Below, in pieces: positions 21,295 through 22,265 of a DNA stretch of 64,000 nt. This DNA is from Escherichia coli (GTDB lineage: Bacteria; Pseudomonadota; Gammaproteobacteria; Enterobacterales; Enterobacteriaceae). The notes below the pieces were generated by a model. The model was not told the origin of the DNA. It ran no database searches and saw only the letters and a program-made list of their open reading frames with translations. Within the stretch, counting starts at the first letter, position 1, and the number at the start of each line of letters is the position of its first letter. The position numbers and the translations under genes were made by a program. The stretch is taken from NCBI RefSeq assembly GCF_003790525.1, contig NZ_CP033635.1. One strand, written 5' to 3'.

Positions 21295-21428
21295 CGCAAC
21301 CCACCAATCTAAACTTTATAAATTCAAGATTACATCAAGTTTAAATTAACATGCAAGTCCACAAAAGATCGAATACACTAAAATCAAGTAAAAATTTATC
21401 GAAACCAAGTAACCAGCAAGGATTAACA
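21295..21428. promoter_or_regulatory. Immunity-region operator/promoter (OR-like) between cro-like and cI-like genes
   Basis: AT-rich 134-bp divergent intergenic region with recurring ATCAAGT/CAAGT motifs (21334..21340, 21383..21389, 21405..21410), candidate repressor half-sites. Confidence 0.4.
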
Positions 21429-22118
21429 ATGAAAAACTTAAAGAGCACTGAAAATCGAATTACAAAGCTGCTACAGGAGAAAGGCTGGAGCCAAGCAGAG
21501 CTGGCCCGAAAGTTAGGTGTCAGCGCACAGTCCGTACAGTACTGGACAACAGGAAAAACATTTCCAAGGGGAAACCGGCTTGCCCAGTTATCCGAAATAA
21601 GTGGTTATCCGCAATCGTGGTTTTTAGGAGAAATCACGTCACGGCAGTTCTCTTCAAAGGAAAAACATCAAGCAAGAACTGACAGTGTGGTCTTTAACGT
21701 GCTCGATGTTGAGTTTAGTTGCGGCGATGGAACACATGTCCGTGGGGACTTTATCGATGTAGTTCGCTCAATCGAGCTTGATCCTGAATATGCCCGTCGC
21801 CTTGTTGGCAATAGAGCATTTCAAAACATAGAGATTGGTAACGCAAGAGGAGATAGTATGGCTCCAACAATAGCCCCAGGAGATCTTCTTTTTCTCGATA
21901 AAACAGTGAATTACTTTGATGGTGATGGCATTTATGCTTTTTGCTTTGATGGTGAATGCTACGTCAAAAGATTACAAAAGATAGGAAGTAAAATCATGGT
22001 GTTATCTGATAACCCAAATTACCAATCCTGGAGCATTGAAAAAGATGCTCTTGAGCTGCTTTATATCCAATCGAAGGTAATATCATCTGTTCCATTCAAT
22101 ATAAATAGATTTGGTTAA
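21429..22118 (+). CDS. cI: CI-like repressor (N-terminal HTH_XRE + C-terminal S24 LexA-like peptidase domain)
   Basis: HTH LLQEKGWSQAELARKLGVSAQSVQYW; S24 signature GDSMAPTI and later KRL...G; start placed at MKNLKST (ORF track start 21351 is in-frame upstream). Confidence 0.8.
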   Translation: MKNLKSTENRITKLLQEKGWSQAELARKLGVSAQSVQYWTTGKTFPRGNRLAQLSEISGYPQSWFLGEITSRQFSSKEKHQARTDSVVFNVLDVEFSCGDGTHVRGDFIDVVRSIELDPEYARRLVGNRAFQNIEIGNARGDSMAPTIAPGDLLFLDKTVNYFDGDGIYAFCFDGECYVKRLQKIGSKIMVLSDNPNYQSWSIEKDALELLYIQSKVISSVPFNINRFG

Positions 22119-22181
22119 TTATTTATTATTAAAGAAAAAATTTACAAATCAAGTAAAAGAGACGCATAAATCAATTTTTTC

Positions 22182-22211
22182 TTGACAACCCCATCAATCA
22201 AGATCTAACAT
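22182..22211 (+). promoter_or_regulatory. Candidate PL-like sigma70 promoter with operator-like repeats (OL)
   Basis: TTGACA (22182..22187), 18-bp spacer, TAACAT (22206..22211); the surrounding region 22140..22265 carries ATCAAG/CTTGAT repeats like those in the cro-cI intergenic region. Confidence 0.35.
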
Positions 22212-22265
22212 CACACCATCAATTTTAACTTGATTTGTTGTTAATTTTAAATTGATGGTGATTCA

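What the first reader, a model, noticed from the sequence alone, without database searches (positions are those of the whole stretch)
21295..22265. Immunity region with shared ATCAAG-type repeats on both sides of the cI-like gene
The cro-cI intergenic region and the region just downstream of cI both carry recurring ATCAAGT/ACTTGAT-like motifs and short inverted repeats, consistent with OR and OL operator sets for one repressor; a TTGACA-N18-TAACAT promoter sits within the downstream set.
Basis: seen in the sequence. Interest (0 to 1): 0.25.

Follow-up and report, generated by a model that had tools for sequence, protein, structure and literature searches.

The report
Prophage repressor operators flanking cI gene
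The repeated ATCAAGT words on both sides of this prophage's repressor gene are half-sites of a conserved 17-base palindrome, most likely the binding sites through which the repressor silences the phage; this is the ordinary lambda-type design with a previously undescribed site sequence.

Summary
The window carries a lambdoid prophage immunity module. It comprises a cro-like YdaS-family gene (21022-21294, minus), a cI-like HTH+S24 repressor (21429-22118, plus), and a promoter (TTGACA-N18-TAACAT) driving a leftward-type operon that ends at an integrase.

ATCAAGT is the half-site of a 17-bp palindrome, consensus ATCAAGTTtAACTTGAT. That consensus was taken from relatives, not from the window. Scanning the 64 kb with it puts the three best hits, and 6 of the 11 hits with at least 12/16 matches, inside the two spacers (281 bp; about 0.07 expected).

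The sites are:
- right operator region: 21303-19, 21334-50, 21383-99;
- left operator region: 22170-86 (overlaps the -35), 22218-34 (at about +1), 22240-56.

In 86 related loci (cI 77-100% identical) the sites keep their positions and spacing. Their outer bases are 0.90-0.94 conserved against 0.51-0.60 for the other spacer bases.

Two things are weaker. The copies at 22148 and 22193-22202 are not conserved. Site 22240-56 is lineage-specific.

Binding itself is untested, and the cro and cI promoter assignments are inferred. This is a new member of a known kind, of low to moderate interest.

The parts
21022..21294 (-). cro-like gene (90 aa, YdaS-family helix-turn-helix), transcribed divergently from cI
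   Evidence: Pfam YdaS_toxin scores 48.9 bits against a cut-off of 30, with a weaker P22_Cro match. PHROG 35 is annotated 'transcriptional repressor'. The nearest solved structure is the chain deposited as 'Cro protein', 3bd1, E = 8e-4. The HTH segment ...GVTPQAVNQWF... is conserved in all relatives.
21303..21319 (.). Right-operator site c, ACCAATCTAAACTTTAT (12/16 to consensus). It lies about +4 to +20 of the inferred cro promoter and abuts the cro ribosome-binding site.
   Evidence: Consensus scan. The same position holds ATCAAGTTAAACTTTAT, ATCAAGTTAAAATTGAC, ATCAAGCTATAATTGAT or ATAAAGTATAACTTGAT in the 77-83% relatives.
21329..21337 (-). Inferred extended -10 of the cro promoter (PR): TGaTGTAAT on the minus strand. 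The TG comes from the left half of site a.
   Evidence: Read from the sequence. Relatives have TGATATTAT, TGATATTCT or TGATGTATT at the same place. The promoter scan did not report it. This is an inference.
21334..21350 (.). Right-operator site a, ATCAAGTTTAAATTAAC (13/16). It fills the spacer of the inferred PR and ends 1 bp before the shared -35 hexamer.
   Evidence: Consensus scan. The outer 6+6 positions are invariant in six lineages.
21351..21356 (.). ATGCAA/TTGCAT: the inferred -35 hexamer of both divergent promoters, read on opposite strands. It lies inside the invariant block AATTAACATGCAAG (21344-21357).
   Evidence: The block is invariant in six lineages. The promoter role is an inference.
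21374..21379 (+). Inferred -10 of the cI maintenance promoter (PRM-like), TACACT, 17 nt after ATGCAA
   Evidence: TAnAnT is kept at this position in all lineages as TACACT, TAAAAT or TAAACT. Not reported by the scan. This is an inference.
21383..21399 (.). Right-operator site b, ATCAAGTAAAAATTTAT (13/16), lying over the inferred start point of cI transcription
   Evidence: Consensus scan. ATCAAG...TTTA is invariant in six lineages. It starts 49-50 bp after the start of site a in all relatives.
21429..22118 (+). cI-like repressor gene (229 aa): N-terminal HTH_3 and C-terminal Peptidase_S24
   Evidence: Pfam. PHROG 4 and 6201 are annotated 'CI-like repressor'. The N-terminal domain is nearest to the 434 repressor, 2r63, E = 8e-4. 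Candidate cleavage site Cys98-Gly99, with Ser143 and Lys180 spaced 37 residues apart. Ribosome-binding site AAGGA. GenBank and RefSeq annotate the same start in near-identical records.
22148..22154 (+). Isolated ATCAAGT copy with no matching right half, probably not a functional operator
   Evidence: Conservation 0.39. It changes to CTCAAG or CCCAAG in relatives whose cI is 99.6% identical, and a terminator occupies this place in the main 88% lineage and in the 77-83% relatives.
22170..22186 (.). Left-operator site g, ATCAATTTTTTCTTGAC (12/16). Its right half supplies the -35 of PL.
   Evidence: Consensus scan. Outer positions 0.94 conserved. It reads ATCAAGTTTAACTTGAC in the 77-83% relatives.
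22182..22211 (+). PL-like promoter, TTGACA-N18-TAACAT, reading away from cI towards gene 22266 and the integrase at 27497-28810
   Evidence: Best promoter match in the region, 10 of 12. TTGAC is invariant, and a TAnnnT -10 element follows 17-18 nt later in all lineages. Integrase identified.
22193..22202 (+). Overlapping half-site words ATCAATCAAG inside the PL spacer, specific to the window lineage
   Evidence: No 17-mer here reaches 10 of 16. Conservation 0.54.
22218..22234 (.). Left-operator site i, ATCAATTTTAACTTGAT (15/16), the best site in the window. It begins 6 nt after the -10, at about +1 of PL.
   Evidence: Top hit of the whole 64 kb. Outer positions 0.94 conserved. It is a perfect 16/16 palindrome in the 77-83% relatives, with the same 6-nt offset from the -10.
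22240..22256 (.). Candidate third left-operator site j, GTTAATTTTAAATTGAT (12/16). It starts 22 bp after site i and abuts the ribosome-binding site of gene 22266.
   Evidence: Consensus scan. It is present only in lineages that carry the same downstream gene, and it scores only 9/16 in the Stx2_95-type lineage. Its status as an operator is uncertain.
22266..22694 (+). First gene of the PL operon: a 142-aa protein with a C-terminal HTH_3 domain. It is context, not part of the conserved operator module.
   Evidence: Pfam. PHROG 4836 is annotated 'CII-like regulator'. Unrelated genes take its place in the 77-83% relatives, which keep the operators.

Best explanation
The two AT-rich spacers on either side of the cI-like gene are the right (OR) and left (OL) control regions of a lambdoid prophage immunity module. 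The recurring ATCAAGT is the half-site of a 17-bp two-fold symmetric operator, consensus ATCAAGTT-t-AACTTGAT.

Inferred mechanism.
- Dimers of the 229-aa repressor bind these sites. The repressor has a 434-type helix-turn-helix domain and a LexA-type self-cleaving domain.
- At OL, one site covers the -35 of the strong promoter TTGACA-N18-TAACAT and another covers its start point. Occupancy would shut off the operon that runs to the integrase.
- At OR, site a fills the core of the cro promoter and site c lies just downstream of its start, so occupancy would shut off cro and the replication and late genes behind it.
- Site a also ends next to the weak -35 of the cI promoter, the position from which lambda repressor activates its own gene.
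- Site b lies over the cI transcription start, so it would turn cI down when bound by excess repressor or by the Cro-like protein.
- DNA damage would trigger repressor self-cleavage and release all of this.

What is shown: the sites, their enrichment, their conservation and geometry, and the protein families. What is inferred: who binds, the order of filling, the cro and cI promoters, and activation.
For: Enrichment.
- Four of the 10 ATCAAGT copies in the window fall in 281 bp; 4 or more arose in 0 of 50,000 conservative simulations.
- The consensus was taken from divergent relatives and then used to scan the window. The three best hits of 64 kb, and 6 of the 11 hits with at least 12/16, are in the two spacers, against 0.067 expected.

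Conservation.
- The scan covered 86 related loci. In the seven lineages examined in detail (cI 77-100% identical), OR sites sit at 31 and 49-50 bp spacing, and OL sites 47-48 bp apart bracket TTGAC.
- The 77-83% relatives carry perfect ATCAAGTTTAACTTGAT palindromes.
- Outer operator positions are 0.90 and 0.94 conserved against 0.60 and 0.51 for the other spacer positions (Mann-Whitney p = 8e-8 and 2e-10).
- ATCAAG/CTTGAT is the most frequent spacer 6-mer, 31 copies against 1.4 expected.

Specificity.
- The cI recognition helix (GVSAQSVQYWTTGKT) and the Cro HTH travel with the sites, while the gene after PL is swapped between lineages.
- Three loci whose repressors are only about 40% identical have no hit of 12/16 or better.

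Proteins and layout.
- Protein families.
- PL is the best promoter match in the region and points towards the integrase.
- A YdaS-family protein has been shown by footprinting to act as the Cro counterpart of a cI-like regulator in prophage CP-933P (PMC8630535, read).
Against: - There are no binding or transcription data for this immunity type. No paper containing these site sequences was found in the library searched.
- Three of the six window sites match only 12/16, and site j is lineage-specific.
- The proposed cro and cI promoters share a -35 hexamer with only 3 of 6 matches, and the scan did not report either promoter.
- The sites are not adjacent as in lambda. Start-to-start spacings of 31, 49 and 48 bp make lambda-style pairwise cooperativity uncertain.
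- Sequence alone cannot say whether cI, Cro or both recognise each site.
- Many of the relatives are closely related, so part of the conservation is shared ancestry. The contrast between site bases and the bases between them argues against this being the whole story.
Confidence: 0.85

Rival explanations
1. The sites are recognised mainly by a regulator other than cI. Either the YdaS-type Cro alone binds them, or the HTH protein encoded just after PL (22266-22694) does.
For: Both proteins have helix-turn-helix domains. The Cro HTH is as conserved across relatives as that of cI. Site j occurs only where the downstream HTH gene is present.
Against: Sites g, i, a, b and c persist unchanged in relatives where the downstream gene is replaced by unrelated genes. 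That excludes the downstream protein as the conserved partner. In every studied lambdoid switch, repressor and Cro share the same operators (established knowledge; also PaaR2/YdaS, PMC8630535). 'Cro only' would leave the repressor with no target.
Confidence: 0.06
2. The short inverted repeat formed by sites i and j (22214-22260) is not a pair of operators. It is an RNA hairpin in the leader of gene 22266 that hides its ribosome-binding site.
For: As RNA, 22214-22270 folds at -17.3 kcal/mol (z = -4.5), and the 3' arm covers GGUG. The equivalent segment of PhiR49_2 folds at -16.7 kcal/mol (z = -4.1). The CACC/GGTG extension goes beyond the operator consensus and co-occurs with site j. The Stx2_95-type lineage keeps the pairing although j matches only 9/16.
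Against: There are no compensatory changes in 22 variants, and several variants break pairs. A PL transcript starting near 22218 lacks CACC and then folds no better than shuffled sequence (-6.7 kcal/mol, z = -0.5). Site i is conserved as an operator in lineages that have no j.
Confidence: 0.1
3. The ATCAA cores are binding sites for the host protein IHF, whose consensus WATCAANNNNTTR shares ATCAA (consensus from established knowledge).
For: They share the ATCAA core and an AT-rich setting.
Against: No exact match to WATCAANNNNTTR lies in either spacer; the only match in the window is at 45075. Two-fold symmetry and a CTTGAT partner at fixed distance are not IHF features.
Confidence: 0.02
4. 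The repeats are a chance by-product of low-complexity AT-rich promoter DNA.
For: The spacers are 24-31% G+C against 50% for the window. The count of promoter-like hits is not above chance.
Against: Simulations trained on the spacers' own composition never reach the observed counts. Site bases are conserved while neighbouring AT-rich bases vary.
Confidence: 0.01

Closest known systems
Phage lambda cI/Cro switch with OR and OL
   Same: - cI and cro are divergent genes either side of a multi-site operator.
- A second operator set lies downstream of cI, over a promoter that reads in the same direction as cI towards int.
- The operators are 17-bp two-fold symmetric sites.
- The repressor has an N-terminal HTH and a C-terminal self-cleaving domain.
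- One site abuts the -35 of the cI promoter, as OR2 does.
   Different: - The site sequence is unrelated; lambda OR1 is TATCACCGCCAGTGGTA, as quoted in PMC5977221.
- The sites are spread out (31, 49, 48 and 22 bp start to start) rather than adjacent.
- The two divergent promoters appear to share one -35 hexamer.
- cI has a leader with a ribosome-binding site.
- No rexAB genes are present, and OL lies only 0.9 kb from OR.
- Cro belongs to the YdaS family.
Phage 434 repressor and its 14-bp operators
   Same: It is the nearest solved relative of the N-terminal domain (2r63, E = 8e-4). The alignment shows a shared Q-S in the recognition helix and a shared G-K-T turn. From memory, the 434 half-site ACAAG resembles TCAAG here.
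   Different: Sequence similarity is weak and confined to about 60 residues. The operator here is 17 bp with an odd central base, not 14 bp. Membership of the 434 immunity group is excluded.
PaaR2/YdaS switch of cryptic prophage CP-933P (PMC8630535)
   Same: A YdaS-family protein plays the Cro role opposite a cI-like regulator. The two share palindromic operators in the intergenic region and at a PL-like promoter.
   Different: The operators there are 18-bp palindromes with half-site GTTTAGTAA. PaaR2 heads a toxin-antitoxin operon. Here the repressor is a standard HTH+S24 protein.
Stx phage 933W and BAA2326 repressors (PMC5977221)
   Same: They are lambdoid immunity regions of E. coli prophages. 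According to that paper, 933W has no OL3 site, which is comparable to the two conserved OL sites here.
   Different: The repressors and operator sequences are different; BAA2326 OR1 is ATAACTGTGCGTAATG. Those systems have footprints, and this one has none.

Membership tests
cI/LexA-type phage repressor (HTH + Peptidase S24) | N-terminal helix-turn-helix DNA-binding domain | tested here: met
   Pfam HTH_3 scores 36 bits against a cut-off of 23, residues 13-57. Alignment to the 434 repressor.
cI/LexA-type phage repressor (HTH + Peptidase S24) | C-terminal S24 domain with a Ser/Lys catalytic pair | tested here: met
   Peptidase_S24 scores 61.4 bits against a cut-off of 23.3. Ser143 lies in GDSM and Lys180 in YVKRL, 37 residues apart. 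I recall the same 37-residue spacing for LexA, from memory.
cI/LexA-type phage repressor (HTH + Peptidase S24) | RecA-stimulated self-cleavage at an Ala/Cys-Gly bond in the linker | not testable with these tools
   A candidate Cys98-Gly99 bond is present. Cleavage itself needs an experiment.
Lambdoid OR/OL operator architecture | Repressor and cro genes transcribed divergently from a shared spacer that holds several copies of one symmetric site | tested here: met
   Gene layout. Three sites at 21303, 21334 and 21383, conserved in relatives.
Lambdoid OR/OL operator architecture | The same site repeated at a second region beyond cI, overlapping a promoter for the int-side operon | tested here: met
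   Sites at 22170 and 22218 bracket TTGACA-N18-TAACAT. They are conserved. The integrase lies downstream.
Lambdoid OR/OL operator architecture | OR sites overlap the cro and cI promoters | tested here: inconclusive
   Conserved TGnT..(a/t)T and TAnAnT elements and a shared ATGCAA/TTGCAT hexamer fit this. The consensus scan did not call either promoter, and no start sites are known.
Lambdoid OR/OL operator architecture | Three adjacent sites separated by only a few base pairs, allowing pairwise cooperativity as in lambda, 434 and P22 | tested here: not met
   Start-to-start distances are 31 and 49 bp in OR and 48 and 22 bp in OL.
Lambdoid OR/OL operator architecture | Sites bound by the repressor and by Cro | not testable with these tools
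   This needs gel-shift or footprinting experiments.
Cro-type lytic repressor (YdaS family) | Small HTH protein encoded next to the repressor on the opposite strand, matching a Cro/YdaS model | tested here: met
   YdaS_toxin scores 48.9 bits against a cut-off of 30; P22_Cro scores 23 bits, below its cut-off of 30.2. The chain deposited as 'Cro protein', 3bd1, matches at E = 8e-4.
IHF binding site | Match to WATCAANNNNTTR | tested here: not met
   No match in either spacer.

The most novel reading that the evidence does not exclude
The switch may be wired differently from lambda. Both plus-strand promoters, the cI promoter and PL, are bracketed by a pair of operators 48-49 bp apart, which is not a whole number of helical turns. 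The cro and cI promoters seem to share a single -35 hexamer, so RNA polymerase could occupy only one at a time. In the window lineage the terminator after cI is missing. A long inverted repeat (22214-22260) could then hide the ribosome-binding site of the first PL gene on read-through transcripts from cI, but not on transcripts that start at PL. That would amount to promoter-of-origin control of translation.
Probability: 0.12. Interest if true: 0.4.

Novelty: new member of a known kind. Interest (0 to 1): 0.2.

Why it matters
This repressor type is shared by the Stx2f phage phi467 (100% identical cI). At 88% identity, with an identical recognition helix and conserved operators, it is also shared by many Stx2a- and Stx2d-converting phages and by a Klebsiella phage. 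A defined operator consensus and site map gives a concrete starting point for three things: testing cross-immunity between these toxin phages, measuring how easily they induce, and recognising this immunity group in genomes. It does not change how such switches are understood.

Tried and rejected
- Exact-word statistics over the whole window. ATCAAGT is not enriched overall (10 against 8 expected). Only its clustering is significant.
- The promoter scan as evidence. The number of hits is not above chance, and the scan misses the proposed cro and cI promoters. These rest on conservation only.
- TTAACA (21346-51) as the -35 of the cI promoter, by analogy with PL. Rejected because no -10 element is conserved 17-18 nt downstream, whereas TAnAnT 22-23 nt downstream is conserved.
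- The 255-aa ORF from ATG 21351. Rejected because that ATG is out of frame in relative L079, and both GenBank and RefSeq start the gene at the position equivalent to 21429.
- An RNA hairpin reading of the i/j inverted repeat. It has no covariation support.
- IHF sites. The consensus is absent.
- Literature searches for the site sequences returned nothing. Papers that mention phi467 do not treat its operators.
- Other consensus hits of at least 12/16 (4752, 5632, 19092, 51547, 57575). Five hits outside the spacers against about 2.8 expected for the window; those at 4752, 5632 and 19092 fall inside long ORFs and the other two lie beyond the integrase. Treated as chance.

Full report
**What is there.** The finding spans a cI-like gene and its two flanking spacers.
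- ORF listing and Pfam give a 90-aa YdaS/Cro-type helix-turn-helix gene at 21022-21294 on the minus strand.
- They give a 229-aa HTH_3 + Peptidase_S24 repressor at 21429-22118 on the plus strand, with ribosome-binding site AAGGA.
- They give a 142-aa HTH_3 gene at 22266-22694 on the plus strand.
- The plus-strand genes run on to a tyrosine integrase at 27497-28810. The minus-strand genes run through a helicase and a primase. In the related phage record the same run ends at a gene annotated as an antitermination protein.
- This is the lambda layout seen from the other strand. The spacer between cro and cI corresponds to OR. The spacer after cI, which reads on towards int, corresponds to OL/PL.
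- The 1.7 kb around the finding is 99.4% identical to the Stx2f phage phi467. The prophage in the window is a mosaic that shares only three blocks with phi467 and carries no stxA.
- The host flank is E. coli.

- ATCAAGT is not over-represented in the window as a whole (10 copies, 8 expected).
- Four of the ten copies fall in the 281 bp of the two spacers. Simulations with the spacers' own dinucleotide make-up expect 0.07 copies and never gave four.
- The repeat finder ties the sites together within and between the spacers, and shows the near-perfect palindrome ATCAATTTTAACTTGAT at 22218-34.
- TTGACA-N18-TAACAT at 22182-22211 is the best promoter-like match in the region.

**What is the unit?** Related immunity regions answer this.
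- A protein search of phage records and IMG/VR contigs gave 86 loci with cI 77-100% identical.
- They include PhiR49_2, many Stx2a- and Stx2d-converting phages (88%), metagenomic contigs (80-83%) and a Klebsiella phage (77%).
- In the most distant relatives, the region after cI holds two perfect or near-perfect copies of ATCAAGTTTAACTTGAT. The first ends in the -35 element TTGAC, and the second starts 6 nt after the -10.
- I scanned the window with this externally derived consensus (ATCAAGTTNAACTTGAT, 16 specified bases). The three best hits in 64 kb are in the two spacers, and so are 6 of the 11 hits with at least 12 matches, against 0.067 expected:

| Site | Coordinates | Matches |
|---|---|---|
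| c | 21303-19 | 12/16 |
| a | 21334-50 | 13/16 |
| b | 21383-99 | 13/16 |
| g | 22170-86 | 12/16 |
| i | 22218-34 | 15/16 |
| j | 22240-56 | 12/16 |

- An unbiased count of 6-mers in the spacers of six lineages puts ATCAAG/CTTGAT first (31 copies, 1.4 expected). It is followed by words that tile the same palindrome.

**Conservation.**
- In alignments of six lineages, the outer six bases of each half-site are 0.90 (OR) and 0.94 (OL) conserved. The other spacer positions are 0.60 and 0.51 conserved (p = 8e-8 and 2e-10).
- The relatives keep the site spacing: 31 and 49-50 bp in OR, and 47-48 bp in OL.
- The cI recognition helix and the Cro HTH are conserved with the sites. The gene after PL is replaced by unrelated genes in the 77-83% relatives. 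The sites therefore belong to the cI/cro module, not to the downstream HTH protein.
- Three loci whose repressors are only about 40% identical have no hit of 12/16 or better.

**What does not hold.**
- The ATCAAGT at 22148 has no partner half. It mutates even among relatives whose cI is 99.6% identical. It lies where the main 88% lineage and the 77-83% relatives have an intrinsic terminator.
- The ATCAATCAAG at 22193-22202 is specific to the window lineage.
- Site j exists only in lineages that share the downstream gene, and it is degenerate in one of them (9/16).
- Together with site i and the flanking CACC/GGTG, site j forms a long inverted repeat. As RNA this repeat would fold well and cover the ribosome-binding site of gene 22266. 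There are no compensatory changes in 22 variants, and a transcript starting at PL would lack the outer pairs.

**How it most likely works.**
- PL is well supported. Its -35 is made by the right half of site g, and its start lies at the left edge of site i, so a bound repressor would block it.
- For OR I infer the following from conserved elements:
  - a cro promoter on the minus strand, TTGCAT (21356-51)-N16-TGaTGTAAT (21337-29), whose spacer is site a;
  - site c at about +4 to +20 of that promoter;
  - a cI promoter on the plus strand, ATGCAA (21351-56)-N17-TACACT (21374-79).
- Site a ends 1 bp before the -35 of the cI promoter, the position of lambda OR2, and site b lies over its start, giving it the role of lambda OR3.
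- The two -35 hexamers are the same six base pairs read on opposite strands. Both are poor matches, and the scan did not call either promoter. This part is inference.
- The repressor has Ser143/Lys180 and a Cys98-Gly99 candidate cleavage site. This fits SOS induction.
- A YdaS-family protein acting as Cro has an experimental precedent in prophage CP-933P (PMC8630535).

**Comparison and novelty.**
- In outline this works like lambda. The repressor's DNA-binding domain is nearest to that of phage 434.
- It differs in site sequence, in the wide spacing of the sites, and in having two conserved sites at OL, as reported for 933W (PMC5977221).
- No paper in the searchable library contains these site sequences. 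The site map therefore appears to be undescribed, but the kind of system is textbook.
This is a new member of a known kind, with interest 0.2.

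Noticed in passing
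window 22119-22170, compared with L002 5050-5090: The window lineage has no intrinsic terminator between the cI stop and PL; the scan found none in 20900-22500. The main 88% lineage and the 77-83% relatives carry ACGGGCTTTGCCCG plus a T-run immediately after the cI stop, while the Stx2_95-type 88% variants, like the window, lack it. cI transcripts may therefore read into the PL operon here.
   Followed up: partly
window 22214-22260: A long inverted repeat, CACCATCAAT...ATTGATGGTG, extends beyond operator sites i and j. As RNA it folds at -17.3 kcal/mol (z = -4.5) and pairs with the ribosome-binding site GGTG of gene 22266. Only transcripts starting upstream of about 22214 would contain the full stem. 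There are no compensatory changes in 22 variants.
   Followed up: yes
window 22266-22694: The first gene after PL encodes a 142-aa HTH_3 protein, not an N-type antiterminator; it falls in PHROG 4836, annotated 'CII-like regulator'. Its 3' part (about 22495-22663) is 89-92% identical to phiP27 and several Stx2a phages, which marks a mosaic joint inside the gene.
   Followed up: partly
window 19855-20475 (-): A 206-aa NUMOD4 + HNH_3 homing-endonuclease-like ORF overlaps the start of the helicase gene by 10 bp. Window 19872-20682 has no megablast match to phi467, so this segment is an inserted or swapped module.
   Followed up: partly
window 21344-21357: The 14-bp block AATTAACATGCAAG is invariant in all six lineages, more strictly than the operators themselves. 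I read it as the right half of site a plus the shared -35 hexamer of both divergent promoters. The ATG inside it (21351) opens a 255-aa ORF in the window, but it is out of frame in relative L079.
   Followed up: partly
window 12720-15778: The prophage carries tRNA-Arg(tct) and tRNA-Met(cat) at 12720-12873, an insertion-sequence transposase (DDE_Tnp_1) at 13396-14376 and a Porin_1 gene at 14672-15778. I expected a toxin cassette near such tRNAs from memory of Stx phages, but there is no stxA in the window.
   Followed up: partly
window 1-28810 compared with phi467 (L086): The prophage shares only 16377-19871, 20683-23991 and 25780-27199 (94.7-97.1% identical) and a lysis-gene fragment with the Stx2f phage phi467. 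The same immunity module therefore sits in different phage backbones, including Stx2a and Stx2d phages at 88% cI identity.
   Followed up: partly
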